IMG/VR virus record: IMGVR_UViG_2974784677_000001
Strand: one strand, 5' to 3'
Origin: Thalassavirus gary
Taxonomy: Duplodnaviria; Heunggongvirae; Uroviricota; Caudoviricetes; Demerecviridae
Length of the DNA: 64,000 nt
Under the pieces are notes generated by a model that worked only from the letters and a program-made list of their open reading frames with translations, did not search any database and had not been told where the DNA came from. This document shows positions 15,824 through 62,533 of this stretch, piece by piece; the stretch's first letter is position 1; every line of letters starts with the position of its first letter. A program made the translations under genes and the position numbers.

Positions 15824-15852
15824 TTTGATCTATATCAACTTTTTTGCTATAA
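15824..15852 (+). promoter_or_regulatory. sigma70-type early promoter (TTGATC-17-TATAAT) for nrdD operon
   Basis: -35/-10 hexamers with 17-nt spacer upstream of RBS GGAGGAG and ATG at 15907. Confidence 0.5.
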
Positions 15853-15906
15853 TATATGTCCAATTTGGGAATTTTATAAACCAACCACAGACGTTGGAGG
15901 AGAAGT

Positions 15907-18081
15907 ATGATTATAATCAAACGTGATAACACACGACAAGCATTTAACTTACATAAACCGTATGAAGCTGCTTTCATGGCTGCTAGTGACGCGGGTTATG
16001 ATTACTCTGACGCTAGCCAAATCGCTAATGATACAACTCAATTAGTAATCCATAGACTTCAAACAGAAGCTAGAGAAGAAGTAAGTGTATACGAGATCGA
16101 ACAATTAGTAGAAGACACACTTATGTCTAGTTGCTGGAAAGATGTAGCAAGAAAGTACATCGAGTATCGTCACGATCGCCAACAGGCGCGAGATTTGGAA
16201 AGTGATCTGCACAAAAACATTGTGGGATTAGTTGACCAGACTAACCCAGATATTCTGCATGAAAATGCAAACAAGGAATCAACAGTATTCCACGTACAAC
16301 GGGATTTACTAGCGGGTGAAATTTCTCGCCACTATGCACTAAACTACCTACTACCACGCGAAGTAGCTCGTGAGCATATCGCCGGTAATCTTCATTTTCA
16401 CGACCTAGACTACTTCCCAATGATGGGTATGACAAACTGCTGTCTAGTAGATCTTGAAGGTATGTTGAAGAACGGCTTTAAAATGGGTAACGCACAGATT
16501 GAGTCTCCAAACTCAATTCAAACTGCTGCTACCGTAGTATCACAAATTGCCGCGGCTGTTGCAAGCTCACAGTATGGTGGTACATCGTTTGACCGTCTAG
16601 ATGAAGTTCTAGCACCTTACGTGACTAAGACTTACCAGAAAGAATATAAGCGAGCTATGTCATTATTCCGTCGCTTTACTGGTACAGATGTTGTAACTGG
16701 CGACCTAGCCTTAAACTGTATAAAATCCGAAGCGCGTATCGCTACTGAAAAAGCAGTATTCGATGCTTGCCAAACACTAGAGTACCAAGTAAACACTATT
16801 TACTCAACTAACGGTCAGACTCCATTCTTGACCTTCGGTTTTGGTCTAGGCACGTCATGGGAAGCTAAGCTAGTTCAAAAAGGTATTCTACAGAACCGTA
16901 TTGCAGGTTTAGGTAAAGAAGCAGCTACGCCTGTGTTCCCTAAACTAGTATTTGGTCTGCGTGATGGTGTTAACCTAAAACCGGAAGATCCAAACTACGA
17001 TATTAAGCAACTAGCATTAGAGTGTGCTACTAAACGCATGTATCCAGATATTCTTAACTATGATAAGACAGTCGAGATAACTGGCGGGTACAAAGCACCT
17101 ATGGGTTGTCGTTCATTCCTGTCTCCTTGGCACGATGAAAACGGTAAAGAAACTTATTCTGGTCGTAACAACTTAGGAGTTGTTTCACTGAACATCCCTA
17201 AAATCGCTCTAGAAGCTCAACTAGATTACGATAAATTCTGGGATCTACTAGACAATTACTGTGAAGTAGCACATCGTGCGCTACAGTACCGTTTAGAACG
17301 TTTATCAACCGTAAAAGCTAAATCCGCGCCGATTATGTATATGGAAGGTGCGCTAGGTCTACACCTAGACGGCGAAGAGCTTGTCCTTCCACACCTGTTG
17401 AAGCGCGGTGCTAGCATCTCCTTAGGTTACATTGGCCTAGAAGAAGCAGCTAACGCAATGCTAGGAAGTATGATTCATACTTATGATGAGCCAGAAAAGC
17501 AACAATTCGCTCTAGATATTGTTAAGTTCCTTGACAAGAAAGCTACAGAGTGGAAAGAGGCAGAGGGTATTGGTTACTCAATTTATGCAACTCCAAGTGA
17601 GTCTCTATGTAACCGATTCTGTAAAGCAATCGTTAGAGAATACGGTGAGTTTGAAGGTGTAACGGATAAAGGCTACTTGACTAACTCATTCCACTTAGAC
17701 GTACTGAAGAAGGTTAATCCTTATGACAAAATCGACTTTGAAGCCCAGTTTATCCCATACAGCTCAGGCGGTCACATCTGTTATGGAGAGTTCCCGAACA
17801 TGCGCCATAACATCGAAGCACTTGAAAATGTGTGGGATTTTTCCTACACAAGAGTACCGTACTACGGTACAAACACGCCTATCGACGAATGCTACGAATG
17901 TGGCTTCAAAGGTGAGTTCAATTGTACCAGTAAAGGTTTCGAGTGCCCCAATTGTGGCAACCATGAACCTGATAAATGCTCCGTCACTCGTCGTGTCTGT
18001 GGCTATCTAGGTAATCCTGGTACTCGTCCATTCAATGCAGGTAAACAGTCAGAAATGACTAAACGTGTAAAACATCTTTAA
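15907..18081 (+). CDS. nrdD: anaerobic ribonucleoside-triphosphate reductase (class III RNR)
   Basis: 724 aa; C-terminal glycyl-radical motif RVCGYLG and Zn cysteines CYECG..CPNCG. Confidence 0.9.
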   Translation: MIIIKRDNTRQAFNLHKPYEAAFMAASDAGYDYSDASQIANDTTQLVIHRLQTEAREEVSVYEIEQLVEDTLMSSCWKDVARKYIEYRHDRQQARDLESDLHKNIVGLVDQTNPDILHENANKESTVFHVQRDLLAGEISRHYALNYLLPREVAREHIAGNLHFHDLDYFPMMGMTNCCLVDLEGMLKNGFKMGNAQIESPNSIQTAATVVSQIAAAVASSQYGGTSFDRLDEVLAPYVTKTYQKEYKRAMSLFRRFTGTDVVTGDLALNCIKSEARIATEKAVFDACQTLEYQVNTIYSTNGQTPFLTFGFGLGTSWEAKLVQKGILQNRIAGLGKEAATPVFPKLVFGLRDGVNLKPEDPNYDIKQLALECATKRMYPDILNYDKTVEITGGYKAPMGCRSFLSPWHDENGKETYSGRNNLGVVSLNIPKIALEAQLDYDKFWDLLDNYCEVAHRALQYRLERLSTVKAKSAPIMYMEGALGLHLDGEELVLPHLLKRGASISLGYIGLEEAANAMLGSMIHTYDEPEKQQFALDIVKFLDKKATEWKEAEGIGYSIYATPSESLCNRFCKAIVREYGEFEGVTDKGYLTNSFHLDVLKKVNPYDKIDFEAQFIPYSSGGHICYGEFPNMRHNIEALENVWDFSYTRVPYYGTNTPIDECYECGFKGEFNCTSKGFECPNCGNHEPDKCSVTRRVCGYLGNPGTRPFNAGKQSEMTKRVKHL

Positions 18082-18103
18082 GAGGGCAATTGCCCTCTTT
18101 TTA
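18081..18103 (+). terminator. rho-independent terminator after nrdD
   Basis: AGAGGGCAATTGCCCTCT + TTTTT. Confidence 0.6.
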
Positions 18104-18120
18104 ACCCTAGGAGAAAGTAT

Positions 18121-18333
18121 ATGAAATTATTTATGGCATCTTGGTGTACATACTGCCAACCAGTTAAAGAACTAATCAAAAATAAAGGACTGGATGTACA
18201 ACTATTGGATATTGACCACTCGTTTGAGCTAGCTAGTCAATACCGCATCAAACAAATCCCTGCACTAGTATTAGACGATGACACAGTAATGTTAGAATCA
18301 CTAGAAATTATGCGCTACTTGGAGACCCTATAA
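18121..18333 (+). CDS. glutaredoxin/NrdH-like redoxin
   Basis: 70 aa, CxxC active site WCTYC, thioredoxin-fold length. Confidence 0.6.
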   Translation: MKLFMASWCTYCQPVKELIKNKGLDVQLLDIDHSFELASQYRIKQIPALVLDDDTVMLESLEIMRYLETL

Positions 18334-21558: not shown

Positions 21559-21588
21559 TTGCTATTTCGAGAGAATTTTTATATAATA
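21559..21588 (+). promoter_or_regulatory. early promoter TTGCTA-18-TATAAT
   Basis: member of the conserved promoter family, followed by leader CCATAAATTGAAAAGGAGATT. Confidence 0.6.
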
Positions 21589-21617
21589 GTTCCATAAATT
21601 GAAAAGGAGATTGTATT

Positions 21618-23614: not shown

Positions 23615-23644
23615 TTGCTAATTTGGATAATAACTTGCTATAAT
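23615..23644 (+). promoter_or_regulatory. early promoter TTGCTA-18-TATAAT
   Basis: promoter family member; leader CGCATAGTTTGAAAGAACGGAGATA. Confidence 0.55.
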
Positions 23645-23676
23645 ATTCGCATAGTTTGAAAGAACGGAGATAAAAA

Positions 23677-24137: not shown

Positions 24138-24166
24138 AAACTTGAATTGCTAAAACATCAAAAACT
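24138..24166 (+). promoter_or_regulatory. early promoter TTGCTA-17-TATAAT
   Basis: AACTTGAATTGCTAAAACATCAAAAACTTTATATAAT. Confidence 0.6.
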
Positions 24167-24186
24167 TTATATAATATTCCCATAGT

Positions 24187-24489
24187 TTGAAAACAAAGAA
24201 AGGAAAAATCAATATGACTGAACAAAAAGTAACTCTAAAACCTGTAGCTGGTGACTCTCTTCTAATCGGTAAATACCAGTCTGGTGTAGACCGTAAGGGA
24301 AAACCTGTGTTCCGTTCAATGTCAAAAGGCAAAGAACCTTCTACTATCGTGGAAGTGGTCTATGAAGACGGTCGTGTTCGCTCTAAAGAAGGCGATGTGT
24401 ACGCAGTACGTCTGAACAAACGTCCAACGGTCATTAAGACCCGTCATGGCAAGAAAGCACTTCCTGCCCAATGGATTACCGTAGCGTAA
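24187..24489 (+). CDS. hypothetical protein
   Basis: 100-aa ORF. Confidence 0.35.
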   Translation: MKTKKGKINMTEQKVTLKPVAGDSLLIGKYQSGVDRKGKPVFRSMSKGKEPSTIVEVVYEDGRVRSKEGDVYAVRLNKRPTVIKTRHGKKALPAQWITVA

Positions 24490-25934: not shown

Positions 25935-25962
25935 TTGCTTAAACATCAAAAACTTTATATAA
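25935..25962 (+). promoter_or_regulatory. early promoter TTGCTT-16-TATAAT
   Basis: promoter family member. Confidence 0.55.
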
Positions 25963-26001
25963 TATATTCCTAAACTGAGAAAACAAAAGAAGGAAATCAA
26001 A

Positions 26002-26196
26002 ATGGCTAAACGTTCTAAAATGATTGGTATTAAAATGTCTGACCGCACTCGTAAAATGGCAGGTGAATACGGCATTGAAATTCTTGAGCAACGTCGCTCT
26101 GGTCTGGCTAAAGTCCTAGGCTTACTTGCTCGTGGTACTCGCGTCTCCAATCATCCTCGCGCTGTTGAATACACTGCGGCTCAATTCGGTCTTTAA
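26002..26196 (+). CDS. hypothetical protein
   Basis: 64-aa ORF with RBS AAGGAAA. Confidence 0.35.
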   Translation: MAKRSKMIGIKMSDRTRKMAGEYGIEILEQRRSGLAKVLGLLARGTRVSNHPRAVEYTAAQFGL

Positions 26197-26245
26197 TTAG
26201 ACCGTCTTAAAACTTTCTCATTAACTAATTATAAGGATACCAAAT

Positions 26246-26482
26246 ATGAATGGTAAAATGGCAAAAAATCTTCGTCGTATTGCACGTGGTCTTACTACTG
26301 TGGATTCTAACGAACTTGTAGACGTAACAGGTACAACCCGTATTCGTACTGCATCAAACGGTACTAAAGTAGCTACACGAACTCAAGCTCACGCTAAAGG
26401 TAGCTTCCGAAACATGCTTAAAGCGTGTAAATCAAATCGAATCTTCTCGTTTAACCCAGAAGAAAACGCTCACGTAGCTTAA
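26246..26482 (+). CDS. hypothetical basic protein
   Basis: 78-aa ORF. Confidence 0.35.
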   Translation: MNGKMAKNLRRIARGLTTVDSNELVDVTGTTRIRTASNGTKVATRTQAHAKGSFRNMLKACKSNRIFSFNPEENAHVA

Positions 26483-26615
26483 TAATTATGCAGAGAGCAT
26501 AAAAATTAAAAATATAATTGCTCTCTGCTAAAACCTTTGTTATAATGGTTATCTAAATTAAAGAAAACCTCTTCATCAAATTTGAAAGCATTTGGTACTT
26601 AAATTAAAAAATGTC

Positions 26616-26644
26616 TTGCTAAGTGCTTTGAAACTTGATATAAT
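26616..26644 (+). promoter_or_regulatory. early promoter TTGCTA-17-TATAAT heading the tRNA cluster
   Basis: promoter family; followed by a 51-aa ORF (26675-26830) and then tRNAs. Confidence 0.55.
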
Positions 26645-26674
26645 AGTTCCATAAATTGATAAGGAATTGAAGAT

Positions 26675-26830
26675 ATGAAAAAACGTGGTAAAATTCAAAA
26701 GATTGCAATGTTCGCTCTTGGTTACGGTTCTAGTATTCCTCTAGCGAGTAAGAAATCTGGTTTAGGTTTACGTCGTACTAAGACTCTAGCTAAACATATT
26801 GCCGAAAACGGTTTTCGTATTCGAGACTAA
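26675..26830 (+). CDS. small hypothetical protein (51 aa)
   Basis: ATG at 26675 after leader with AAGGAAT; below ORF-track cutoff. Confidence 0.25.
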   Translation: MKKRGKIQKIAMFALGYGSSIPLASKKSGLGLRRTKTLAKHIAENGFRIRD

Positions 26831-26835
26831 ATAAT

Positions 26836-26912
26836 TGCGAGGATGGAGAAATGGCGTCTTGCGAGTTTCATAAGCTCGATAACGTGGGGTTCGAATCCTC
26901 ACCTCGCATCCA
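26836..26912 (+). tRNA. tRNA, anticodon CAT (Met/fMet or Ile2)
   Basis: acceptor TGCGAGG/CCTCGCA, T-loop GGTTCGAATCC, anticodon loop TTCATAA, 3' CCA encoded. Confidence 0.55.
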
Positions 26913-26918
26913 AATTAT

Positions 26919-26995
26919 GCGCGTGTAGCTCAGTTGGTTAGAGCATCTGACTTTTAATCAGGTGGTCGAAGGTTCGAGTCCTTCTACGCGCACCA
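26919..26995 (+). tRNA. tRNA-Lys (TTT)
   Basis: GCGCGTG.../TACGCGC acceptor, D-loop TAGCTCAGTTGGTTAGAGC, loop CTTTTAA, T-loop GGTTCGAGTCC, CCA. Confidence 0.75.
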
Positions 26996-27015
26996 AATTA
27001 CTCTAGGAGTGAAGA

Positions 27016-28177: not shown

Positions 28178-28206
28178 TTGCTCAACTAGTTACTTTTCTG
28201 TATAAT
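28178..28206 (+). promoter_or_regulatory. early promoter TTGCTC-17-TATAAT with conserved leader
   Basis: leader AGTTACATAAAGTTGAGAAACGGAGATAACAAA. Confidence 0.6.
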
Positions 28207-28239
28207 AGTTACATAAAGTTGAGAAACGGAGATAACAAA

Positions 28240-29575: not shown

Positions 29576-29604
29576 TTGCTAAACATCGCATTTTAACGTA
29601 TAAT
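29576..29604 (+). promoter_or_regulatory. early promoter TTGCTA-17-TATAAT with conserved leader
   Basis: leader AGTTACATAAAGTTGAGAAACGGAGATAATAA then ATG 29637. Confidence 0.6.
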
Positions 29605-29636
29605 AGTTACATAAAGTTGAGAAACGGAGATAATAA

Positions 29637-31067: not shown

Positions 31068-31096
31068 TTGCAAAACACATATTAACTTGCTATAAT
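31068..31096 (+). promoter_or_regulatory. early promoter TTGCAA-17-TATAAT that reads directly into tRNA genes
   Basis: TTTGCAAAACACATATTAACTTGCTATAAT then leader CGCATAAATTAAGAAATA and tRNA-Ile. Confidence 0.55.
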
Positions 31097-31116
31097 ATAC
31101 GCATAAATTAAGAAAT

Positions 31117-31192
31117 ACTTCCGTAGCTCAGTTGGTAGAGCAAACGACCGATAATCGTTAGGTCACTGGTTCGACTCCAGTCGGGAGTACCA
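31117..31192 (+). tRNA. tRNA-Ile (GAT)
   Basis: acceptor ACTTCCG/CGGGAGT, anticodon arm AACGA-CCGATAA-TCGTT, T-arm CACTGG-TTCGACT-CCAGT, CCA. Confidence 0.7.
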
Positions 31193-35111: not shown

Positions 35112-35140
35112 TTTGCTAACTTCTCTTATTTAACGTATAA
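35112..35140 (+). promoter_or_regulatory. early promoter TTGCTA-17-TATAAT
   Basis: promoter family; leader AGTTATATAAATTGATGAGAGAGG. Confidence 0.6.
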
Positions 35141-35172
35141 TAGTTATATAAATTGATGAGAGAGGTTATCAA

Positions 35173-35573: not shown

Positions 35574-35602
35574 TTGCTAACTAGCCTTAAAATCTGTATA
35601 AT
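35574..35602 (+). promoter_or_regulatory. early promoter TTGCTA-17-TATAAT with conserved leader
   Basis: AGTTACATAAAGTTGAGAAACGGAGATTGTTAATG. Confidence 0.6.
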
Positions 35603-35628
35603 AGTTACATAAAGTTGAGAAACGGAGA

Positions 35629-36123
35629 TTGTTAATGAGTAAAGCACTTTTTGATTTAGTAACTGAAATGCGTGAAAAAGACATGAAAGCGCATTCCCTA
35701 GCATTATCTTATTTGGAAGATTTTGATACCATGCTTCTGGTAGAGCCCACCAAGAAACTAGCCTCACCATCGCTAGAAAACAACTATCGTGGGCGTCTTG
35801 CACTGTACTTCGAGAAAGAATTTAGCCAGCATATGGCTATACCTGAATATCGTGGTACTTATATTAAAGAGTATAGTCTAGAAGGTATCGACTATGAAAA
35901 CCGGACTATTATGCTAGAAAGTTGGGTAGGTGATTCTTGTGAGACTCTACGAGTACCTGTATTTGACTTCGCCAAACTGCGTGAAATACAAGAAGTAGCA
36001 AACGAAATTGCAACCAAGCTTAATGTTTTCCATGAAAACAGAAAAGAAGAAAAAGAAGCCAAGGCTAAAGAAGAACGTCGTAACCAATATCTTGAACTTC
36101 AAAAGGAGTTTGGTGATGAGTAA
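35629..36123 (+). CDS. hypothetical protein
   Basis: 164-aa ORF right after the conserved leader. Confidence 0.45.
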   Translation: MLMSKALFDLVTEMREKDMKAHSLALSYLEDFDTMLLVEPTKKLASPSLENNYRGRLALYFEKEFSQHMAIPEYRGTYIKEYSLEGIDYENRTIMLESWVGDSCETLRVPVFDFAKLREIQEVANEIATKLNVFHENRKEEKEAKAKEERRNQYLELQKEFGDE

Positions 36124-36574: not shown

Positions 36575-36603
36575 TTGCTAAATAACTAAAAATTCCGTAT
36601 AAT
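36575..36603 (+). promoter_or_regulatory. early promoter TTGCTA-17-TATAAT with conserved leader, driving a non-coding transcript and tRNA-His
   Basis: TTGCTAAATAACTAAAAATTCCGTATAATAGTTACATAAAGTTGAGAGAG. Confidence 0.6.
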
Positions 36604-36604
36604 A

Positions 36605-36868
36605 GTTACATAAAGTTGAGAGAGTCAAGTAAGCGCGGTAACTGGCGTAATGTAGTCACTACTTCGTGGATTGTAATTCTTTCTCGACTTGTCACATTAA
36701 AACATTCTTGAATTGTCTGGTGGAGTAAGAGCCGTCAGAAAAAGACAGAAAGCCGTGCTACTCACACTAGACTCTTACAGTGTTGGGTACGAAAGCCTGA
36801 ATAAGAATACGGTCAGGTCATGCCGTGGGGATAGCTACCTCTAGAGCTAACTGTGTAGAGTGTTTTAA
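36605..36868 (+). ncRNA. candidate structured ncRNA (about 260 nt) between promoter and tRNA-His
   Basis: no ORF; long-range complementarity TGTCACATTAAAACATTC (about 36686) with GAGTGTTTTAATGTGACG (about 36856) closes a roughly 170-nt domain; internal hairpins. Confidence 0.4.
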
Positions 36869-37888: not shown

Positions 37889-37918
37889 ATTGCGAAGTAG
37901 GTCAATCTCAAGTATAAT
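37889..37918 (+). promoter_or_regulatory. early promoter TTGCGA-18-TATAAT
   Basis: promoter family; leader ACATAAATTGAAGAAGGAAACAGAATATG. Confidence 0.55.
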
Positions 37919-37948
37919 ATATACATAAATTGAAGAAGGAAACAGAAT

Positions 37949-49525: not shown

Positions 49526-49554
49526 TTGTCAACTTACAAAAATTTTCATATAAT
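49526..49554 (+). promoter_or_regulatory. promoter TTGTCA-17-TATAAT
   Basis: hexamers and spacing; leader AAGAAATTAAGGAGAGCTTATG. Confidence 0.5.
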
Positions 49555-49578
49555 ATATAAAGAAATTAAGGAGAGCTT

Positions 49579-50040
49579 ATGAAGATTGAAAAATTAGAAC
49601 ATCTACTGGCAACAGCAGAACAATGGGCAAAAGACCTACATTACGGACAAACCTACGCTTTTGGTGATGATTACTTTGAGGCTCACATCAAAGAAGTAGA
49701 GAAGACGGTAATTGAACTTACTCGTAGCGATTCGTATACACGAACAGATCGTTACCTAGCACGAATTGTAGCACTCCTGCATGATGCTGTGGAAGATACA
49801 GATTGCACTATCGCAGAGATTCAACGCACATTTGGTACTCGTATTGCACAGTGTGTAATGAACCTAACCAAAGTAGATAAAGAGTCTTGGGAATCGCAAT
49901 GGTCTAGAGCTACACGTGACCCTATCTCTCTGGTAGGTAAGAAAGCAGACATAATGGTTAACCTTCGAGTTTCTTTAGCAAACAACCGTGTAAACCTAAT
50001 TGAAAAATACACAACAGGCTTACGTTATTTATCTCTTTAA
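49579..50040 (+). CDS. HD-domain hydrolase, SpoT/Mesh1-like small alarmone hydrolase candidate
   Basis: H..(about 30)..ALLHDAVEDT motif, 153 aa. Confidence 0.5.
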   Translation: MKIEKLEHLLATAEQWAKDLHYGQTYAFGDDYFEAHIKEVEKTVIELTRSDSYTRTDRYLARIVALLHDAVEDTDCTIAEIQRTFGTRIAQCVMNLTKVDKESWESQWSRATRDPISLVGKKADIMVNLRVSLANNRVNLIEKYTTGLRYLSL

Positions 50041-50069
50041 TTGCTAAACATCGTTAAATAACGTATAAT
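50041..50069 (+). promoter_or_regulatory. early promoter TTGCTA-17-TATAAT with conserved leader
   Basis: AGTTACATAAAGTTGAGAAATGGAGATTGTCTTG. Confidence 0.6.
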
Positions 50070-50088
50070 AGTTACATAAAGTTGAGAA

Positions 50089-51141
50089 ATGGAGATTGTC
50101 TTGAACATTTTCGTATTAGACCTAGACCCCAAGCTAGCAGCACAGTATCACTGTGATAAGCACATTATTTCTCAAATGAAAGAAAGTGTACAGATGTTAT
50201 GTACGGCTATGATTCATTGGGGCAATAAACCACCACTTAATAAATCTGGTGAGCCATATAAGAAAGCTCACGAAAACCATCCGTGTACTAAATGGGTACG
50301 CGACGGTATTGACAACTATCAATGGTTATGGGATTTGACTTATGCGCTTGTCGAAGAAGCTGAGTATCGTTTTGGTAATACATACCATATTGCAAGTATT
50401 ATACGTGATGGCTCACTACCTCGCTTACCAGAGCAGCACCCCACACCCCGTACTCGCACACCTTTCGCTAATGCTACAGCAGATTGGCTTAAGTCTAGTG
50501 ACAATTGGGAGAATAAGTCGTCTTTCGTGACGCTTAACGCTGTTGATATTTATCGTCTTTACTACATTGTAGATAAGATGCACATGACAGCAGTTGATAT
50601 GGGTGAGCAAAACCTACACTGGCAATCTAAGCATACTCTAGGTGAAGAGTTCACTGAGTATTCTATTTGGACTAAACGTGGAGCACCAGAATTTATGAGT
50701 GATCGTTTCTATGCACAGCAATGTGAATACTTTGGTATCAAACCAGCACAACTTATTCATATGGGTCGTTACCCAGACTCAGATGAAGCCAAAAAGCTTA
50801 AAGCTAAGATGTATCGTAAGCTTGGCAAAAAGTCTACAGGTACAGTGGCTAACGCTAAAGCTAAGAAAACAACCAAAGCAGATGTGCTAGTAGACGTTCG
50901 TGAGCTTATGGGTCACGAGGGTATGGATTGCCTACTTAAACTAACGCTACCTGACTTACAGAAACTTAAGTTAGCACTTGTTGCTATGCACGAGAACCAA
51001 GTAGAATGTCCAGATATGCCAACTGGTCGTACGAAAGCGCCATTTATTACAGCGTTAAATACGTTTTTCAATAGCGATATTGACTTCGCTAAAATGACTA
51101 TCGCAGGTCTTAAAGAAGTTCTTGAGCACTTCGGTGCTTAA
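50089..51141 (+). CDS. hypothetical protein; N-terminus weakly resembles pyrimidine-dimer DNA glycosylase (DenV family). The start may be the TTG at about 50101.
   Basis: NIFVLDLDPKLAAQYHCDKHI versus DenV [20 protein letters not shown] pattern; the ATG at 50089 lies inside the conserved leader (C to T change). Confidence 0.3.
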   Translation: MEIVLNIFVLDLDPKLAAQYHCDKHIISQMKESVQMLCTAMIHWGNKPPLNKSGEPYKKAHENHPCTKWVRDGIDNYQWLWDLTYALVEEAEYRFGNTYHIASIIRDGSLPRLPEQHPTPRTRTPFANATADWLKSSDNWENKSSFVTLNAVDIYRLYYIVDKMHMTAVDMGEQNLHWQSKHTLGEEFTEYSIWTKRGAPEFMSDRFYAQQCEYFGIKPAQLIHMGRYPDSDEAKKLKAKMYRKLGKKSTGTVANAKAKKTTKADVLVDVRELMGHEGMDCLLKLTLPDLQKLKLALVAMHENQVECPDMPTGRTKAPFITALNTFFNSDIDFAKMTIAGLKEVLEHFGA

Positions 51142-51156: not shown

Positions 51157-51185
51157 TTGCTTAAACATCAAAATTTTTATATAAT
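51157..51185 (+). promoter_or_regulatory. early promoter TTGCTT-17-TATAAT
   Basis: AACTTGATTTGCTTAAACATCAAAATTTTTATATAAT. Confidence 0.6.
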
Positions 51186-51212
51186 ATACGCATAGTTTGA
51201 AAGGAGATTAGC

Positions 51213-53459: not shown

Positions 53460-53488
53460 TTGCTAAACAACCTGAAATTCTCTATAAT
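53460..53488 (+). promoter_or_regulatory. early promoter TTGCTA-17-TATAAT
   Basis: leader ACATAAATTAAAGAGAAGGAAGATTAAAATG. Confidence 0.6.
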
Positions 53489-53520
53489 ATATACATAAAT
53501 TAAAGAGAAGGAAGATTAAA

Positions 53521-54759: not shown

Positions 54760-54823
54760 TTGCTAAAGCGGGTTAAAACCCGCTGTAATAACCTCATAAA
54801 TTGATAAACAAAGAGAGAAAATT

Positions 54824-55157: not shown

Positions 55158-55186
55158 TTGCCAAATCACTGAAATTTCCGTATAAT
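55158..55186 (+). promoter_or_regulatory. early promoter TTGCCA-17-TATAAT
   Basis: leader AGTTATATAAATTGAGAAAAGAGAAGATTATG. Confidence 0.55.
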
Positions 55187-55197
55187 AGTTATATAAA

Positions 55198-55785
55198 TTG
55201 AGAAAAGAGAAGATTATGAATAAATTCGTACTAACAGCAATCACAGCGTCATTACTTTCAGCTCAAGCTTTTGCAGGTTGGGGTACTGATACCGCAGCAA
55301 CTATTGAGGCAAATGGTGTTAACCGCCAACAAAAACAATATGCTAAAGTTCAGCCAGTACCGTTCTACCAATGGTCACTAGAACGTGACTTAGTTATCCA
55401 GCTGTATAATACACGTAACCTAAAAGCAGCCACTCACGTAGTATGGCGTGGAGATACTTCTGTTATCGAAGGTGATTGTCCTGCAATTGGCTACGGTATT
55501 CCTTACGACACCAGCTTGACTAACCCACAAACAGCTACAGACGAAGATAACTACGGTGGCCGTAACAATGCGCTGTCAAGTATTGGTCAAGCAGAACCTA
55601 ATGGTGTTTACGCTTCAACCAATACATCAGCTACTTGGGTGATGTGTGTAAATGAACAAGGCTTGATTGAGCCAGTGTACGTTGAAGCAAAAGTTACTGG
55701 TTATCCTTACCCAGTTAACGTTGATTACAACACTAACCGTGTTACTAAAGCAGGTAGAGCATCAGTAACACTACGAGTTAAGTAA
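55198..55785 (+). CDS. secreted protein (signal peptide)
   Basis: signal FVLTAITASLLSAQAFA, 195 aa. Confidence 0.45.
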   Translation: MRKEKIMNKFVLTAITASLLSAQAFAGWGTDTAATIEANGVNRQQKQYAKVQPVPFYQWSLERDLVIQLYNTRNLKAATHVVWRGDTSVIEGDCPAIGYGIPYDTSLTNPQTATDEDNYGGRNNALSSIGQAEPNGVYASTNTSATWVMCVNEQGLIEPVYVEAKVTGYPYPVNVDYNTNRVTKAGRASVTLRVK

Positions 55786-57506: not shown

Positions 57507-57535
57507 TTGCTAAAACACGTTAAAAAGCGTATAAT
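57507..57535 (+). promoter_or_regulatory. early promoter TTGCTA-17-TATAAT with conserved leader
   Basis: AGTTACATAAAGTTGAGAATCGGAGATAGTCATTATG. Confidence 0.6.
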
Positions 57536-57569
57536 AGTTACATAAAGTTGAGAATCGGAGATAGTCATT

Positions 57570-59010: not shown

Positions 59011-59030
59011 ATTGCCAAAGCAGGGATGCT
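59002..59030 (+). promoter_or_regulatory. early promoter TTGCCA-17-TATAAT
   Basis: inside the 3' end of the ligase gene; leader TAGAAATTGAGGAGATTGTTATG. Confidence 0.5.
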
Positions 59031-59065
59031 TTGATATAATATCTGTAGAAATTGAGGAGATTGTT

Positions 59066-59470
59066 ATGAAAAAACTATATTTGATTCGCGGTGTATCTGG
59101 TTCTGGCAAAACTACTCTAGCTAAAACAATGGAACAAGGTATGCTATACTCTCGTGCTGTTGCTGCTGATGACTACTTTATGGTAGAAGGCAAATATCTG
59201 TTTGATGTAAACAAGCTACATGCAGCACATCAATGGTGTCAAGACCAAGTTGATGGTCTTATGGTTTGCGAAATGCACCACATTATTGTGCATAACACCT
59301 TCACTACAGAAAAAGAAATGAAACCATACCTTAACCTAGCAGAAAAGTATGGTTATGAAGTAACAACTCTAGTGGTTGAAAATCGTCACGAATCGGAATC
59401 GGTACACGATGTACCAGAAGAAACTCTAACACGTCAGCATCAACGCCTACGTGCGAACATCCGTCTATAA
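59066..59470 (+). CDS. polynucleotide 5'-kinase (T4 Pnk kinase-domain-like P-loop protein)
   Basis: LIRGVSGSGKTTLAK Walker A; C-terminal VHDVPEETLTRQHQRLR resembles T4 Pnk VFDVPWTELVKRNSKR; start at MKKLYLIRG after RBS GAGGAG. Confidence 0.5.
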   Translation: MKKLYLIRGVSGSGKTTLAKTMEQGMLYSRAVAADDYFMVEGKYLFDVNKLHAAHQWCQDQVDGLMVCEMHHIIVHNTFTTEKEMKPYLNLAEKYGYEVTTLVVENRHESESVHDVPEETLTRQHQRLRANIRL

Positions 59471-59479: not shown

Positions 59480-60043
59480 ATGCGTCTACAGTTCGGAGCA
59501 AAACTAAATCCAGATGTGAATTATTTTATCACGTCTGACTTACACTTCTTTCATACTAACATTATGAAGTTCTGCCCAGAGACGCGTCCTTGGGCTGACC
59601 ATAATGAAATGACGGAAGCACTTATTGCACATTGGAACTCTATTGTGGGTGAAGATGATGTAGTGTTCCACCTTGGAGATTTTTCATTCGCAGGAATGGA
59701 GAAAACTCAGGCTGTCCTAGACCGATTGAATGGTACAATTGTATTTGTAATGGGCAACCACGACAAAACTGTTCGAAATCAGTTGAAGTCACCAAACAAG
59801 TTCGAATATCTCGAAGTTACTTATAATAAAATCAAAATCTGTATGTTCCACTATGCAATGCGTGTATGGAATATGCAACATCATGGTAGCATCCATTTCT
59901 ATGGTCACTCTCATGGGTCACTAGAAGGTACTGGACGCTCTATGGACGTGGGCTATGATGCTCATGGTCGAATCCTGCCGCTAGATTGGGCAGTAAAACG
60001 AATGCAGAAAATTCAAGACATCGAAACAGAGGATCATCACTAA
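59480..60043 (+). CDS. calcineurin-like metallophosphoesterase (candidate 2',3'/3'-phosphatase partner)
   Basis: DLHFFH, GDFSF, GNHD, GHSHG motifs. Confidence 0.6.
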   Translation: MRLQFGAKLNPDVNYFITSDLHFFHTNIMKFCPETRPWADHNEMTEALIAHWNSIVGEDDVVFHLGDFSFAGMEKTQAVLDRLNGTIVFVMGNHDKTVRNQLKSPNKFEYLEVTYNKIKICMFHYAMRVWNMQHHGSIHFYGHSHGSLEGTGRSMDVGYDAHGRILPLDWAVKRMQKIQDIETEDHH

Positions 60044-60627
60044 TGAAAAAGTTTCTAGTATTAATGGCGGCAGTACTATCTTTCAACGCATCTGCTGGTA
60101 GCTGTGCGCAGCAGGTAGGAAATATTAGTGGTCTAGATAAGGCTACTAAACAAACAATGATAATTCAGTGTGAGCAAGCAAAGCTAACAAGCATTAAAAA
60201 TGCTCCACAAGAAGTTGGTGAGATTTCGGATGCAACCGTCGAAAAGATGGATAAATGGTCAGAAATTTCCTTGAAGTTCGCGAAAGCGATTGGTGTGGCA
60301 GCTAAGGAAGTTGGTGTAGCCACTAACGAGTTCCTAGGGACTCCGGCTGGTAAGTTTACAGCAACTATTATAGCATGGAAGATATTTAATGGTACATCAT
60401 GGCTTGCTTTCTTTTTGATGCTAGCTATTACTACCATTATAATCCGAAGTTTCATTCGATTCGTACGCCATAGCGGGTACGAGGAAGTATCTGGTAAGCT
60501 CTTTAATTATAAGAGACCAACCAAGTATACATGGAAAGAAATGGGTGAGAACCAAGTTGGTATGTGCGTTCTAGCATATATTGTCTATATAGTAGTCGTA
60601 TTCTTTACAGCAGTTAATTTATTCTAA
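59986..60627 (+). CDS. membrane protein with signal peptide and C-terminal TM helices
   Basis: signal FLVLMAAVLSFNASA; TM WLAFFLMLAITTIII and LAYIVYIVVVFFTAV. Confidence 0.4.
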   Translation: MGSKTNAENSRHRNRGSSLMKKFLVLMAAVLSFNASAGSCAQQVGNISGLDKATKQTMIIQCEQAKLTSIKNAPQEVGEISDATVEKMDKWSEISLKFAKAIGVAAKEVGVATNEFLGTPAGKFTATIIAWKIFNGTSWLAFFLMLAITTIIIRSFIRFVRHSGYEEVSGKLFNYKRPTKYTWKEMGENQVGMCVLAYIVYIVVVFFTAVNLF

Positions 60628-61088
60628 TGATTAAATATATTGCAATACTATCAAGCCTAGTGCTAATGCTAGGCTTTGCTCACGATGCCCTTGCAACTGA
60701 AAAAGTTGAAGACCCCACTAAGATTGAAGTCTATGGCGGGGCTCTGTCGTATCACTTCGATACTGATAAAGACCTTAACAATGTAAACCCACTAGTCATT
60801 GCTACATATGACGATTGGGCTACAGGCTACTTCTATAATAGCTATAAAGAGAACTCCTTTATGGTAGGTAGAAACTTCTACCTAGAAAGACCTGATCGTT
60901 CTCCTGTAGTTATAGGGGTAATACTCGGAGCTGTAACGGGCTATAATAAAAATCAAGTACCTATGTGCTTTACAGATGGATTCTGTCCTATGGTAATGCC
61001 TTATATTCAATGGCATTATGGAAACTGGAAGCCAACCATAATCTTCGGCGGAGCATTTGTGTCTGCTGCTGTTGGGTACGAATTTTAA
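60627..61088 (+). CDS. outer-membrane beta-barrel protein candidate (PagL/OmpW-size)
   Basis: signal peptide ILSSLVLMLGFAHDALA, alternating amphipathic strands, C-terminal GYEF ending in Phe. Confidence 0.4.
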   Translation: MIKYIAILSSLVLMLGFAHDALATEKVEDPTKIEVYGGALSYHFDTDKDLNNVNPLVIATYDDWATGYFYNSYKENSFMVGRNFYLERPDRSPVVIGVILGAVTGYNKNQVPMCFTDGFCPMVMPYIQWHYGNWKPTIIFGGAFVSAAVGYEF

Positions 61089-61093
61089 ATCTT

Positions 61094-61117
61094 AGGTTGC
61101 TTCGGCAACCTTTTTTA
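61094..61117 (+). terminator. rho-independent terminator
   Basis: AGGTTGC-TTCG-GCAACCT + TTTTTT. Confidence 0.65.
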
Positions 61118-61125
61118 CGTATAAT
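61097..61125 (+). promoter_or_regulatory. early promoter TTGCTT-17-TATAAT overlapping the upstream terminator
   Basis: leader ATGTATAAATTAAAGAGAAGGAAACAATATG. Confidence 0.55.
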
Positions 61126-61155
61126 ATATGTATAAATTAAAGAGAAGGAAACAAT

Positions 61156-62028
61156 ATGTCAAATATTAGCATTATGTGTAACGGCGACAACCACCATTAC
61201 GAACTACAAGTAGACTTCACTAAATTCTCAGATGGAGCAGAAACTTGTACTATTCGCAAACCAAATGTAGACCTTACTAAGTCTAACTTCGTGGTCGTTA
61301 CTATTAACTTCCAAGACGTTACTCGTGATATTGTACGTCTACTCCTAGTGAAAGATGCGCTAGACAATATGCGTGCTGAAAACTGTATCAATTGGGGACG
61401 TATCTCACTAAACATGCCATATATCCCTAACGCCCGTGCTGACCGTAAGTTTGGTTTCGGTATGCCGCTACCTGTTAAGGTATTTGCTAACCTTATCAAT
61501 GCAATGAACTTCGATGAAGTAATGGTAGAAGACCCTCATTCAGATGTTAGTGTGGCACTTATCAACAACGCCACTGTGCTAGACCAATCAGCATTGGTTA
61601 GTATGATGGAACATCATATCGAAAGATACATGCCAGACTTCACTCTGTGTGCACCAGACCTAGGTGCTGCAAAGAAAATCTTTGATGTAGCGTTTGCTAT
61701 GGATAAGCGTGACTGGATTCAAGGTCTTAAAATCCGTGACGTACTTACAGGTGATATTGTTAAGTGTGACCTAGTGCAAGATGAAGTGCCTGAAAATGTT
61801 CTTATTGTAGACGACATTTCAGACGGTGGAGCATCATTCAAGTTCTTGGCTAAGAAACTAAAAGAGCGCGGAGCTAAGAAAGTAGGTCTATATGTTACTC
61901 ATGGTATCTTCTCTAAGGGTCTAGACCCAATCCGCGAAGATATTGATTATGTATTCGTACACAACTTCATTGGTGGCTACATCAATGCAGCAAACGTTCT
62001 AGCATTCAACGAAGGTAAGGATCAATAA
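61156..62028 (+). CDS. ribose-phosphate pyrophosphokinase (PRPP synthetase) family protein; candidate ADP-ribose pyrophosphokinase (Adps-like)
   Basis: VLIVDDISDGGASFKFLAKKLKERGAKKVGLYVTHGIFS closely parallels Prs [38 protein letters not shown]. Confidence 0.7.
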   Translation: MSNISIMCNGDNHHYELQVDFTKFSDGAETCTIRKPNVDLTKSNFVVVTINFQDVTRDIVRLLLVKDALDNMRAENCINWGRISLNMPYIPNARADRKFGFGMPLPVKVFANLINAMNFDEVMVEDPHSDVSVALINNATVLDQSALVSMMEHHIERYMPDFTLCAPDLGAAKKIFDVAFAMDKRDWIQGLKIRDVLTGDIVKCDLVQDEVPENVLIVDDISDGGASFKFLAKKLKERGAKKVGLYVTHGIFSKGLDPIREDIDYVFVHNFIGGYINAANVLAFNEGKDQ

Positions 62029-62504
62029 TGATTAAAGTAGTTCATGGTGATATGGTCAAACATCTACAATCAAAAGACCACCTAGATGCATATGCTCACC
62101 AATGTAACTGTTTCTGTAGAATGGGGAGAGGCATTGCGCCTCTTCTAGCTAAGGCAGTTCCTGGCCTTAGAAAAGCAGATGATATGACTGTTCCTGGTGA
62201 TAAGTCTAAGTTAGGTAGTGTATCTTTATCTGCACATCCTAACGGAGCAGTAGTATTTAATGTCTATGGTCAATATCATTGGCACGCACATAAAGTAGCA
62301 CCAGGCAGAAATACTGACTATGGTGCGCTTAGAAATGGACTAATTACAGTTATTGATCTAATGCAAGAGCATGATTTTAAGACTCTAGGTCTACCTTTGA
62401 TTGGCTGTGGGCTAGCAGGTGGCGATTGGGATAATGTTGTACTCCCAATGATTCACGAATTATTTAATGGATCGGGTGTTGACGTTACTATTTTTAAATT
62501 GTAA
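62028..62504 (+). CDS. macro-domain protein (ADP-ribose binding/processing)
   Basis: 158 aa; HQCNCFCRMGRGIA and GLPLIGCGLAGGDW resemble macro-domain Gly-rich loops; ATGA coupling to the Prs-like gene. Confidence 0.55.
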   Translation: MIKVVHGDMVKHLQSKDHLDAYAHQCNCFCRMGRGIAPLLAKAVPGLRKADDMTVPGDKSKLGSVSLSAHPNGAVVFNVYGQYHWHAHKVAPGRNTDYGALRNGLITVIDLMQEHDFKTLGLPLIGCGLAGGDWDNVVLPMIHELFNGSGVDVTIFKL

Positions 62505-62533
62505 TTGCTTAACTAACTAAAATCTCGTATAAT
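62505..62533 (+). promoter_or_regulatory. early promoter TTGCTT-17-TATAAT
   Basis: leader ACACATAAATTAAAGAAGACAACAAAGGAAATAATCTATG. Confidence 0.55.

What the first reader, a model, noticed from the sequence alone, without database searches (positions are those of the whole stretch)
15824..62533. More than 20 copies of one early promoter fused to a conserved 27-nt leader (AGTTACATAAAGTTGAGAAACGGAGAT)
A TTGCTA(A/T)-17-TATAAT promoter recurs before almost every plus-strand transcription unit. In at least 8 copies the sequence from the -10 through the RBS is nearly identical (GTATAATAGTTACATAAAGTTGAGAAACGGAGATNNNNNATG). Other copies share the core (C)ATAAATT(G/A)A(G/A)A..GGA. Conservation extending about 30 nt downstream of the -10 is more than RNA polymerase needs. 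It suggests a shared 5'-UTR operator for translational repression (a RegA-like role), an RNase site, or a phage-encoded transcription or anti-termination factor site. One copy (50066-50100) has a C-to-T change that creates an in-leader ATG. Another (28208-28245) is followed by a TTG start.
Basis: seen in the sequence. Interest (0 to 1): 0.55.

Follow-up and report, generated by a model that had tools for sequence, protein, structure and literature searches.

The report
T5-type early promoters with conserved start
The repeated element is the standard early-gene promoter of T5-like phages, here in Vibrio phage Gary. Its "conserved leader" is the promoter's own initial transcribed sequence plus a ribosome-binding site, so this is a known kind of signal and not a new RNA operator.

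Summary
The window is Vibrio phage Gary (Demerecviridae, T5-like), bases 46313-110312. The repeat is real. I found 29 copies: 24 on the + strand within the stated range and 5 on the - strand upstream of it. The exact 27-mer occurs only 3 times, plus 2 copies with one mismatch, not in "at least 8".

The "leader" has three parts. There is a 6-nt untranscribed discriminator. There is a roughly 12-nt initial transcribed sequence (ATAAA[G/T]TTGA / ATAAATT[G/A]A followed by purines). Then comes a Shine-Dalgarno sequence. The 5'UTRs are only about 25 nt long.

A model built from Gary finds 33 sites in phage T5, including P-N25, P-N26 and P-K28a. All lie in early-gene regions. The same start motif occurs in Pectobacterium, Aeromonas and V. 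cholerae relatives. Published work on T5 P-N25 shows that this downstream region controls promoter escape about 10-fold.

The motif sits at a fixed distance from the -10 element, not from start codons. It is absent from internal cistrons and is kept in front of tRNA and non-coding transcripts. No RegA homolog is present.

The result is a new member of a known kind. What remains open is why the early class alone carries TTGCTW plus this start sequence. It could be the target of the still-unknown early-gene shutoff.

The parts
5748..5804 (-). Early promoter with class-A-like start (TTGCTC-18-TATAAT ATTATC ATAAAGTTGAGGGAGAT). Drives ligB (gp57).
   Evidence: Orthologous to T5 P-K28a and JSF12 9081.
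7828..7883 (-). Weaker early promoter (TTGCGT-17-TATAAT, ATAAATTAAAGGAG). Drives ligA (gp60).
   Evidence: nhmmer E 0.04
9832..9887 (-). Early promoter with a divergent start (TCAAAGTTAAAC). Drives the D3-like gp66.
11209..11264 (-). Early promoter, class B (ATAAATTGAAAAAG). Drives gp69.
15639..15695 (-). Promoter with core elements only (TTGCCA-18-TATAAT) and no start motif. Drives gp76.
15825..15880 (+). Promoter with TTGATC at -35 and no start motif. Drives nrdD (gp77).
21559..21614 (+). Early promoter, class B. Drives gp82.
23615..23671 (+). Early promoter, class C (ATAGTTTGAAAGAACGGAGAT). Drives gp88. The start sequence closely resembles that of T5 P-N26.
24147..24202 (+). Early promoter, class C. 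Drives gp90.
25935..25990 (+). Early promoter with variant start CTAAACTGAGAAAA. Drives gp94.
26518..26573 (+). Upstream member of a tandem promoter pair. No ORF lies before the next promoter, 98 nt downstream.
26616..26671 (+). Early promoter, class B. Drives gp96.
28178..28233 (+). Class-A promoter with the exact 27-mer. Drives gp105, which has a TTG start at 28240.
29576..29631 (+). Class-A promoter with the exact 27-mer. Drives gp112.
31068..31123 (+). Early promoter, class B, with no RBS. The transcript runs into tRNA-Ile 14 nt after the predicted start.
35113..35168 (+). Early promoter, class B (ATAAATTGATGAGAGAGG, T5-like). Drives gp130.
35574..35629 (+). Class-A promoter with the exact 27-mer. 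Drives gp132.
36575..36630 (+). Class-A promoter with no RBS. It drives a 260-nt unannotated non-coding stretch (36610-36869) followed by tRNA-His.
37890..37945 (+). Early promoter, class B. Drives gp141.
49526..49581 (+). Weak copy (TTGTCA at -35, AGAAATTAAGGAG). Drives gp156.
   Evidence: E 0.04
50041..50096 (+). Class-A promoter with the C-to-T change (in-leader ATG at 50089, in frame with the TTG start at 50101). Drives gp157.
51157..51212 (+). Early promoter, class C. Drives gp158.
53460..53515 (+). Early promoter, class B. Drives gp167.
54760..54816 (+). Early promoter with a TGTAAT -10 and a hairpin in the spacer. Drives gp168.
55158..55213 (+). Early promoter, class B. Drives gp169.
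57507..57562 (+). Class-A promoter with one mismatch to the 27-mer. Drives gp174.
59012..59067 (+). Weak copy with a spacer hairpin (AGAAATTGAGGAGATTGT). Drives gp177.
   Evidence: E 0.05
61097..61152 (+). Early promoter, class B. Its -35 lies inside a terminator-like hairpin (61095-61116). Drives gp181.
62505..62560 (+). Early promoter, class B. Drives gp183 (NAMPT).

Best explanation
These are the early-class sigma-70 promoters of a T5-like phage, read by the host RNA polymerase.

**Anatomy of each unit**
- An A-rich block near -43.
- A class-specific -35 element, TTGCTW.
- A spacer of 17 nt (sometimes 18).
- TATAAT followed by A.
- A 6-nt discriminator ending in a pyrimidine.
- A start at A. 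This is predicted by homology, not mapped.
- An initial transcribed sequence (ITS): A-T-A-A-A-T/G-T-(T)-G/A-A, followed by a pyrimidine-poor purine run that merges into the Shine-Dalgarno sequence.

**How it most likely works**
- The 5'UTR is only about 25 nt long (median 25.5), so the ITS plus the Shine-Dalgarno fill almost all of it. That is why the whole "leader" looks conserved.
- By homology to T5 P-N25, the ITS is part of the promoter. P-N25 binds polymerase very tightly and is limited at the escape step. An A/T-rich then purine-rich ITS lets the polymerase clear the promoter quickly.
- The same composition leaves the mRNA 5' end unstructured, which favours ribosome binding.
- The near-identity of one subclass (class A, ATAAAGTTGAGAAACGGAGAT) has two layers. 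The first 14 nt of the ITS are old and are shared with the V. cholerae phage JSF12. The Shine-Dalgarno-side portion is homogenised within each lineage.

**Shown versus inferred**
- Shown here: the anatomy, copy number, restriction to the early class, family-wide conservation, linkage to the -10, and lack of RNA structure.
- Inferred: the transcription start position and the promoter-escape role in Vibrio.
For: - **Identity of the window.** It is Vibrio phage Gary, NC_055913 46313-110312, family Demerecviridae.
- **Homology to T5 promoters.** The Gary-derived HMM hits 33 T5 sites. These include the annotated P-N25 (TATAATAGATTCATAAATTTGAGAGAGGAGTT), P-N26, P-K28a, P-H207, P-D/E33, P13-P16 and P31A/B. 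All lie in early regions.
- **Class restriction.** T5 pre-early and late promoters, and Gary late-region promoter candidates, have TTGACA-type -35 elements and lack the motif. The 38 sites in the Gary genome all fall between 43 and 118 kb. None lies in the terminal repeats or the structural block.
- **Family-wide conservation.** The same ITS is found in My1, AhSzq-1, JSF12 and 70E37.1 using sites chosen only by their core elements.
- **Composition.** C and T are each at most 0.09 at +11..+14.
- **Prior description.** A T5-like coliphage (AKFV33) was reported with 32 promoters of the form TTGCTw / TATAATA, an AAAAATT block at -43, and TAAATT at +1 (PMC3326045).
- **Experimental basis.** The effect of the ITS (DSR) on N25 escape is documented.
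- **Leader properties.** UTR lengths are. Leader mean folding energy is -1.5 kcal/mol, against -4.8 for random 39-mers (p=1e-9).
- **Linkage to the promoter.** The motif is tied to the -10 and is absent from internal cistrons. It is retained before tRNA and non-coding transcripts.
Against: - There is no 5'-end mapping or transcription assay for Gary or for Vibrio RNA polymerase.
- Pre-early and late promoters of these phages are also strong but lack the motif, so fast escape alone does not explain why only the early class carries it.
- Five to seven copies are identical at every degenerate position while their spacers have diverged. GGAGAT is enriched at promoter-proximal ribosome-binding sites (11/25 against 6/81, p=8e-5). 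Both facts hint at an extra constraint, or at concerted evolution, beyond a generic escape-plus-Shine-Dalgarno function.
- The primary papers (Gentz & Bujard 1985; Kammerer 1986) were not readable here. They are cited second-hand.
Confidence: 0.8

Rival explanations
1. The early-class signature (TTGCTW at -35, the discriminator and the ITS motif) is the cis-target of the phage's temporal switch. A phage protein would recognise it and selectively shut off, or permit, early transcription. Candidates are the D5 DNA-binding protein, or an RNA-polymerase-binding factor like gpT5.026. This reading is compatible with the best explanation and could hold alongside it.
For: - The motif and TTGCTW are confined to the early class in both T5 and Gary.
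- They are conserved across the T5, My1, AhSzq-1 and Ermolyevavirinae lineages and across three host orders, although D5 itself is only 48% identical between Gary and T5.
- The mechanism of the T5 class switch is stated to be unknown. gpT5.026 weakens polymerase contacts with the -5/+2 region (PMC7472727).
- T5 D5 is annotated as required for late transcription and involved in shutoff.
- The Gary D5 homolog scores above the Pfam cutoff for Sigma70_r4_2, a domain type that reads -35 elements (30.3 bits, E 3e-7).
Against: - There are no binding data.
- No gpT5.026 homolog is detectable in Gary by tblastn.
- TATAAT-N6-ATAAAGTTGAGA also occurs as single copies in viral contigs whose sizes (5-23 kb and 160-227 kb) and -35 elements do not look T5-like. 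That fits a generic polymerase-level optimum.
Confidence: 0.2
2. The conserved T(+2)A(+3)AA(T/G)T(+7) is a second, -10-like hexamer. Retained sigma-70 would read it and cause a promoter-proximal pause at about +16..+18, as at lambda PR'.
For: - The two most conserved ITS positions are A(+3) and T(+7), which correspond to positions 2 and 6 of a -10 hexamer.
- The promoters also have the canonical -10, the 6-nt spacer and the Y-R(+1)-Y start that predict sigma-dependent pauses in E. coli. An added -10-like region gives pauses at 16-20 nt (PMC7876045).
- Lambda PR' has AACGAT at +1..+6 and pauses at +16/17.
Against: - No paper found reports such a pause at N25, despite decades of gel assays.
- The hexamer lies 1 nt further downstream than in the E. 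coli set.
- No Q-like factor is known in T5-like phages.
- An A/T-rich start is equally explained by easy melting and scrunching.
Confidence: 0.1
3. The repeats persist and stay alike because they act as recombination linkers that shuffle small early genes. They would be composite terminator/promoter cassettes like the PeSLs of T4-type phages. Similarity would be maintained by gene conversion and not by sequence-specific function.
For: - 5 of 32 indel breakpoints between Gary and four congeners lie within 10 nt of a promoter (4.5% expected, p=0.013).
- One example is the replacement of gp157 exactly between the leader at 50084 and the next promoter at 51135.
- Several promoters carry terminator-like hairpins on or just before the -35.
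- The PeSL concept is described in PMC4122927.
- The Shine-Dalgarno-side leader sequence is lineage-specific: CGGAGAT in Gary, GGAACAGAAGA in JSF12.
Against: - Conversion does not explain why identity stops at the -10 while the adjacent spacer is only 49% identical.
- It does not explain conservation of the ITS across subfamilies whose flanking DNA cannot be aligned.
- The breakpoint enrichment is modest and rests on few independent events.
Confidence: 0.2
4. The leader is an RNA operator for a RegA-like translational repressor, or a specific RNase site, shared by early mRNAs.
For: - Short, A/U-rich, unstructured leaders next to the RBS are what a RegA-type repressor binds. This point rests on my own knowledge of T4 RegA.
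- GGAGAT(T/A)GT extends beyond the Shine-Dalgarno core in many copies.
Against: - The motif is positioned relative to the -10, not relative to the start codon.
- It is absent from all 81 internal cistrons.
- It is retained before tRNA-Ile and before a non-coding RNA that lacks an RBS.
- There is no RegA homolog in Gary or T5.
- There is no Rfam match.
Confidence: 0.04

Closest known systems
Early promoters of coliphage T5 (P-N25, P-N26, P-K28a, P-H207 and others) with their downstream sequence region / initial transcribed sequence
   Same: - Same architecture and spacing: an A-rich block at -43, TTGCTW, a 17-nt spacer, TATAAT-A, a 6-nt discriminator, then ATAAATTTGAGAG... and the Shine-Dalgarno.
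- 12 of the first 14 transcribed nt are identical between Gary class A and N25.
- Class C matches the P-N26 start.
- Restricted to early genes.
- Also used in front of tRNA and stable-RNA genes.
   Different: - The host is Vibrio.
- The discriminators are AGTTAC or ATATAC, where T5 is reported to have ATATT.
- The dominant Gary subclass has G at +6 and a lineage-specific CGGAGAT(T/A)GT tail.
- Nothing has been tested experimentally in this phage.
Promoter sets described bioinformatically in T5-like coliphages (for example AKFV33, PMC3326045)
   Same: The reported consensus is TTGCTw / TATAATA with a 17-18 bp spacer, AAAAATT at -43 and TAAATT at +1, in 32 copies.
   Different: That description covered a close relative of T5. 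The Gary record carries no promoter annotation.
PeSL composite terminator/early-promoter cassettes of T4-type phages
   Same: Many near-identical early promoters, some fused to stem-loops, lie between small ORFs. Some indels between close relatives end at them.
   Different: - An unrelated phage family and an unrelated sequence.
- Only a minority of Gary promoters carry a hairpin.
- The breakpoint association is weak (p=0.013).
Sigma-70-dependent promoter-proximal pause elements (lambda PR', E. coli G1p/G1d promoters)
   Same: A canonical -10, a 6-nt spacer, a Y-R-Y start and a TAnnnT hexamer early in the transcribed region.
   Different: No pause has been demonstrated, no Q-type factor is known, and the hexamer is offset by 1 nt.
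T4 RegA translational operators
   Same: A/U-rich, unstructured sequence close to the RBS of many early genes.
   Different: The motif is tied to the promoter, is absent from internal genes, is present before RNA genes, and there is no RegA homolog.

Membership tests
T5-type early promoter | Sigma-70 core: -35 TTGCTW, spacer 17 +/- 1, -10 TATAAT(A) | tested here: met
   There are 16 exact matches against 0.21 expected. Of the 29 HMM sites, 28 have TATAAT, 26 have TTGC at -35, and all have a spacer of 17 or 18 nt.
T5-type early promoter | A-rich block around -43 | tested here: met
   The consensus is tAAAa about 8-12 nt upstream of the -35 in Gary and AAAAaT in T5.
T5-type early promoter | Conserved downstream / initial transcribed sequence (ATAAATT.. 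then purines) | tested here: met
   22 of 29 window copies fall in classes A, B or C. Pooled frequencies at core-only-selected sites are T+2 0.84, A+3 0.82 and T+7 0.88. The Gary HMM recovers P-N25 and 32 other T5 sites.
T5-type early promoter | Restricted to the early gene class; pre-early and late promoters differ | tested here: met
   Gary: 38 sites, all between 43 and 118 kb. Late-region promoter candidates have TTGACA and no motif. T5 shows the same pattern.
T5-type early promoter | Transcription by host E-sigma-70 starting at the A 7 nt after the -10; the ITS modulates promoter escape | not testable with these tools
   This is inferred from T5 N25.
RegA-type translational operator | Motif positioned relative to the Shine-Dalgarno or start codon of its target cistrons, including internal ones | tested here: not met
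   The offset from the -10 is fixed, while the distance to the start codon varies from 18 to 47 nt. None of the 81 internal cistrons carries the motif. 22 of 27 occurrences are promoter-attached and the rest are about what chance predicts.
RegA-type translational operator | A cognate repressor is encoded | tested here: not met
   tblastn with T4 RegA against Gary and T5 gives a best E-value of 1.4. A non-homologous repressor cannot be excluded.
PeSL-like mobile regulatory cassette | Composite stem-loop terminator plus early promoter | tested here: inconclusive
   Hairpins lie on or just upstream of the -35, or within the spacer, in about 7 of 29 copies. The remaining copies have none.
PeSL-like mobile regulatory cassette | Indel or replacement boundaries between close relatives fall at the cassettes | tested here: inconclusive
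   5 of 32 breakpoints lie within 10 nt of a promoter, against 4.5% expected (p=0.013).
Sigma-70-dependent pause element | A -10-like hexamer in the early transcribed region, on the non-template strand | tested here: met
   TAAA(T/G)T lies at +2..+7, with A+3 and T+7 the most conserved positions.
Sigma-70-dependent pause element | A sigma-dependent pause at about +16..+20 | not testable with these tools
   No report for N25 was found.

The most novel reading that the evidence does not exclude
The early-class promoter signature is a family-wide "early code". It consists of the non-consensus TTGCTW at -35, plus the discriminator, plus a -10-like TAAATT start. It has been conserved from E. coli phages to Vibrio, Aeromonas and Pectobacterium phages. 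In this reading the phage's own switch machinery reads it to turn early genes off. The candidates are D5, whose Gary homolog carries a sigma-70 region-4-like helix-turn-helix, and/or an RNA-polymerase-binding protein. A sigma-dependent pause at the start motif might be part of the mechanism. If true, this would give a cis-element handle on the still-unsolved T5 early-to-late switch.
Probability: 0.15. Interest if true: 0.6.

Novelty: new member of a known kind. Interest (0 to 1): 0.25.

Why it matters
- For annotation, the result supplies 29 unannotated transcription units and their predicted start sites in a Vibrio T5-like phage. It also shows that a simple model transfers across the whole family.
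- For biology, it shows that the P-N25 initial transcribed sequence is not a peculiarity of one coliphage promoter. P-N25 is a workhorse of promoter-escape research and of expression vectors. Its ITS is a deeply conserved, class-specific element.
- That conservation sharpens an old open question. Why do only early promoters of T5-like phages carry TTGCTW plus this start, and is this how early genes are shut off?
- As a discovery it is ordinary, because the element and its main function are already described for T5.

Tried and rejected
- **Eight near-identical 27-mers.** A search allowing up to 3 mismatches finds only 5.
- **Known RNA family in the leaders or the tRNA region.** An Rfam E-value search of 26000-38500 returns only tRNAs and sub-threshold noise.
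- **Structured RNA operator.** The leaders fold more weakly than random sequence.
- **RegA homolog.** None found.
- **gpT5.026 homolog in Gary.** None found by tblastn at E<=0.01, although D5, D3 and T5.115 homologs are found.
- **Simple recent cassette duplication.** Rejected, because spacers and upstream regions of the identical-leader copies are only 42-49% identical and the ITS is shared across subfamilies.
- **Second overlapping promoter using TAAATT as its -10.** Rejected, because nothing is conserved where its -35 would lie, inside the spacer.
- **A consensus elemental pause (G-10 Y-1 G+1) in the leader.** It fits only class A (G6...C15 G16) and not the other classes, so I dropped it.
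- **Primary papers.** Gentz & Bujard 1985 and Kammerer et al. 1986 are not held in the library.
- **Literature search for a sigma-dependent pause at N25.** Nothing found.

Full report
**What the window is.** Megablast places the window at 100% identity on Vibrio phage Gary (NC_055913.1, 46313-110312). This is a T5-like siphovirus of Demerecviridae / Ermolyevavirinae / Thalassavirus that infects Vibrio harveyi. The record annotates only CDS and tRNA features and no promoters. The - strand of 1-15.7 kb carries replication genes: polymerase, primase, helicase, D5, the ligases and homologs of D2 and D3. The + strand from 15.9 kb onward carries nucleotide-metabolism genes, a 23-tRNA cluster and many small ORFs. 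In T5 terms this is the early region.

**Checking the observation.**
- The pattern TTGCTW-N16-18-TATAAT occurs 16 times against 0.21 expected.
- An nhmmer profile built from 19 core-defined sites finds 29 copies at E<0.1. Of these, 24 are on the + strand, with the -10 ending between 15853 and 62533.
- The exact 27-mer occurs 3 times, plus 2 copies with one mismatch, not "at least 8".
- A sixth copy (36575) shares 18 nt and then diverges. A seventh (5748-5804, - strand) has another discriminator.
- Further copies lie outside the window: the exact 27-mer at genome positions 110490 and 111198, and partial matches at 113224 (first ~21 nt) and 43148 (ITS only).
- The TTG start at 28240 and the C-to-T change that makes ATG 50089 are correct. 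That ATG is in frame with the annotated TTG at 50101.

**Anatomy.** T5 P-N25 provides the reference, where TATAATAGATTCAT corresponds to -12..+2 (PMC7472727). By that homology the first 6 nt of the "leader" (AGTTAC) are the untranscribed discriminator, and transcription should start at the following A.

I pooled 103 sites from six Demerecviridae genomes, chosen only by TTGC-N-TATAAT and therefore blind to downstream sequence. Their base frequencies are:

| Position | Most frequent base(s) | Frequency |
|---|---|---|
| -6 | A | 0.88 |
| -1 | C / T | 0.51 / 0.41 |
| +1 | A | 0.80 |
| +2 | T | 0.84 |
| +3 | A | 0.82 |
| +4 | A | 0.83 |
| +5 | A | 0.81 |
| +6 | T | 0.66 |
| +7 | T | 0.88 |

A run follows in which C and T are each at most 0.09 at +11..+14. 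Of the 103 sites, 74 have T+2/A+3/T+7 against 2.6% by chance (p about 1e-92).

In the window the starts fall into classes:

| Class | Start sequence | Copies |
|---|---|---|
| A | ATAAAGTTGAG | 7 |
| B | ATAAATT[G/A]A | 12 |
| C | ATAGTTTGA | 3 |
| divergent | various | 7 |

Predicted 5'UTRs are very short. The median is 25.5 nt and most fall between 18 and 36 nt. The initial transcribed sequence (ITS) plus the Shine-Dalgarno therefore occupy nearly the whole UTR.

**Is it just recent duplication?** No, for three reasons.
- Among the six class-A copies, the discriminator plus ITS is 97% identical. The adjacent 17-nt spacer is 49% identical, the upstream 31 nt are 42% identical and the next 18 nt are 33% identical.
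- Against four congeners (Chester, Athena, Direpillow8, Quinn), ITS positions are variable at 4/300 sites (1.3%). This is like second codon positions (1.4%) and far below third positions (8.4%; p=3e-7). Spacer plus upstream sites vary at 3.8% (p=0.03).
- The same motif is present in distant relatives (next section).

**Related genomes.**
- The Gary-derived profile finds 33 sites in coliphage T5 (NC_005859). They coincide with the annotated promoters P-N25, P-N26, P-K28a, P-H207, P-D/E33, P13a/b, P14a/b, P15a-c, P16-17 and P31A/B. All lie between 16 and 76 kb, apart from the early lpp promoter at 110 kb. None lies in the pre-early terminal repeat or the late block.
- P-N25 reads TATAAT AGATTC ATAAATTTGAGAGAGGAGTT. 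Gary class A reads TATAAT AGTTAC ATAAAGTTGAGAAACGGAGAT.
- T5 P-N26 (ATTCTC ATAGTTTGAAAGAAC) mirrors Gary class C.
- T5 pre-early (P-H22) and late (P-G25, P-J5) promoters have TTGACA or TTGATA at -35 and no such start.
- In Gary's structural region the promoter candidates are likewise TTGACA or TTGACT without the motif. The 38 motif-bearing sites genome-wide all lie between 43 and 118 kb.
- Core-only scans show the same start in Pectobacterium phage My1, Aeromonas phage AhSzq-1, V. cholerae phage JSF12 and, more degenerately, Vibrio phage 70E37.1.
- D5 proteins of Gary and T5 are only 48% identical, so the element is old.
- JSF12 shares ATAAAGTTGAGAAA with Gary class A but continues GGAACAGAAGA, where Gary has CGGAGAT. 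The ITS is therefore the ancient part, and the Shine-Dalgarno-side tail is homogenised within each lineage.

**DNA-level or RNA-level?**
- The motif sits at a fixed distance from the -10, while its distance to start codons varies.
- Of 27 occurrences of the 9-10-mers in the window, 22 are attached to a -10. The other 5 match the chance expectation of about 6.
- None of the 81 internal cistrons has the motif, although most have GGAG-type Shine-Dalgarno sequences.
- Three copies drive no ORF: 31068 runs into tRNA-Ile after 14 nt, 36575 into a 260-nt non-coding stretch and then tRNA-His, and 26518 is the upstream member of a tandem pair. All three keep the ITS but lack the Shine-Dalgarno. T5 does the same at P13b, P15b and P16-17.
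- In the 36610 transcript the ITS-derived AAGUUGAGAGAG pairs with a downstream complement to form a 5' hairpin. T5 P16-17 and a My1 promoter show the same arrangement. It looks as if the RNA accommodates a start sequence that the promoter imposes.
- mRNA leaders are nearly unstructured. Mean folding energy is -1.5 kcal/mol, against -3.7 for internal translation-initiation regions and -4.8 for random 39-mers.
- There is no Rfam match and no RegA homolog.

**What is known.**
- For the T5-like coliphage AKFV33, 32 promoters were described with TTGCTw, TATAATA, a 17-18 bp spacer, AAAAATT at -43 and TAAATT at +1 (PMC3326045).
- For P-N25, changing +3..+20 ("antiDSR") lowers full-length RNA to about one tenth and lengthens the abortive products. 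[quoted passage not shown] 1986 and Hsu et al.).
- The region downstream of the -10 is therefore something RNA polymerase does use.

**Best explanation.** These are T5-type early promoters. The conserved "leader" is the discriminator, plus the ITS (a promoter-escape element that also keeps the 5' end unstructured), plus the Shine-Dalgarno, packed into a UTR of about 25 nt. My confidence is about 0.8 that this is what the element is. The escape mechanism in Vibrio is inferred.

**What remains unexplained.**
- Why only the early class carries TTGCTW plus this start. The mechanism of the T5 temporal switch is explicitly unknown. gpT5.026 perturbs polymerase contacts at -5/+2 (PMC7472727).
- The Gary D5 homolog scores above the Pfam threshold for sigma-70 region 4. 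This makes D5 a candidate reader of class-specific promoter elements, but that is speculation.
- The ITS hexamer TAAA(T/G)T at +2..+7 looks like a -10 element. The promoters also have the canonical -10, the 6-nt spacer and the Y-R-Y start that predict sigma-dependent pauses in E. coli (PMC7876045). I found no report of such a pause at N25.
- GGAGAT is enriched at promoter-proximal ribosome-binding sites (11/25 against 6/81, p=8e-5). In addition, 5 of 32 indel breakpoints against congeners fall at promoters (p=0.013). Both are compatible with some cassette-like concerted evolution of the kind described for PeSLs in T4-type phages (PMC4122927).

**Verdict.** The feature is real and functionally constrained, but it is a known kind of element, so interest is low to moderate. 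The residual value lies in the family-wide, class-specific conservation as a handle on T5-type temporal control.

Noticed in passing
window 36610-36869 (+): A 260-nt stretch that is unannotated and lacks any long ORF (longest 43 aa). It is driven by a class-A promoter and runs into tRNA-His. Its 5' ITS pairs with 36679-36690 to form a terminal hairpin (folding z-score -2.5). It has no Rfam match. It is 96.6-100% conserved in 27 Thalassavirus records and is never annotated. It is absent from Chester, Athena and Quinn. T5 has "stable RNAs" of unknown function at the equivalent place, just upstream of tRNA-His.
   Followed up: partly
window 61095-61116 (+); also L016 about 39600 and 43020 (JSF12): A terminator-like hairpin, GGTTGC-TTCG-GCAACC followed by T6. 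Its 5' arm and loop contain the -35 TTGCTT of the next promoter, and its T-run forms the spacer. The arrangement is conserved at the orthologous PRPP-synthase promoter of JSF12, with a changed loop and a 1-bp longer stem. Hairpins inside the spacer occur at 54768-54783 and 59016-59033.
   Followed up: partly
window 5872-5900 (-): A second promoter of a different type (TTGACA-17-TATACT) lies about 95 nt upstream of the ligB early promoter. It is the counterpart of T5 P-K28b. Tandem pairs 93-105 nt apart also occur before ligB in JSF12 and 70E37.1, and at 26518/26616 in the window.
   Followed up: partly
window 4200-4964 (-), gp56 (D5 homolog): The C-terminal part matches Pfam Sigma70_r4_2 above the curated cutoff (30.3 bits, E 3e-7). 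T5 D5 is annotated as required for late transcription and early shutoff. gp64 (8757-9062, -) is PC4-like.
   Followed up: no
window 50084-51135 (+): gp157 (Pfam Pyr_excise N-terminus) is replaced by an unrelated shorter gene in Athena, Quinn and Direpillow8. The breakpoints fall inside the class-A leader on one side and 10 nt before the next promoter on the other. The start of gp157 is ambiguous: ATG 50089 without a Shine-Dalgarno, or the annotated TTG 50101 with a 4-nt spacing.
   Followed up: partly
window 37170-37252 (+): A weak tRNA-like match (Rfam tRNA-Sec model, 29.5 bits, below threshold) that ARAGORN does not call. Congeners annotate a tRNA-Arg just after the homologous small ORF.
   Followed up: no
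loci L017-L079 (IMG/VR): TATAAT-N6-ATAAAGTTGAGA occurs in 63 stretches of viral contigs. These include single copies in contigs of 5-23 kb and 160-227 kb with other -35 elements. Some are followed by a complement of the ITS (AAGTTGAGAAAAGAGTTTTTCAACTT). The start sequence may therefore be favoured beyond T5-like phages.
   Followed up: no
window 60000-64000 and 34000-35100: The phage carries an NAD salvage set among its early genes: NAMPT, PRPP synthase, a PnuC-like transporter and a nucleoside 2-deoxyribosyltransferase. Each block is headed by one of these promoters.
   Followed up: no
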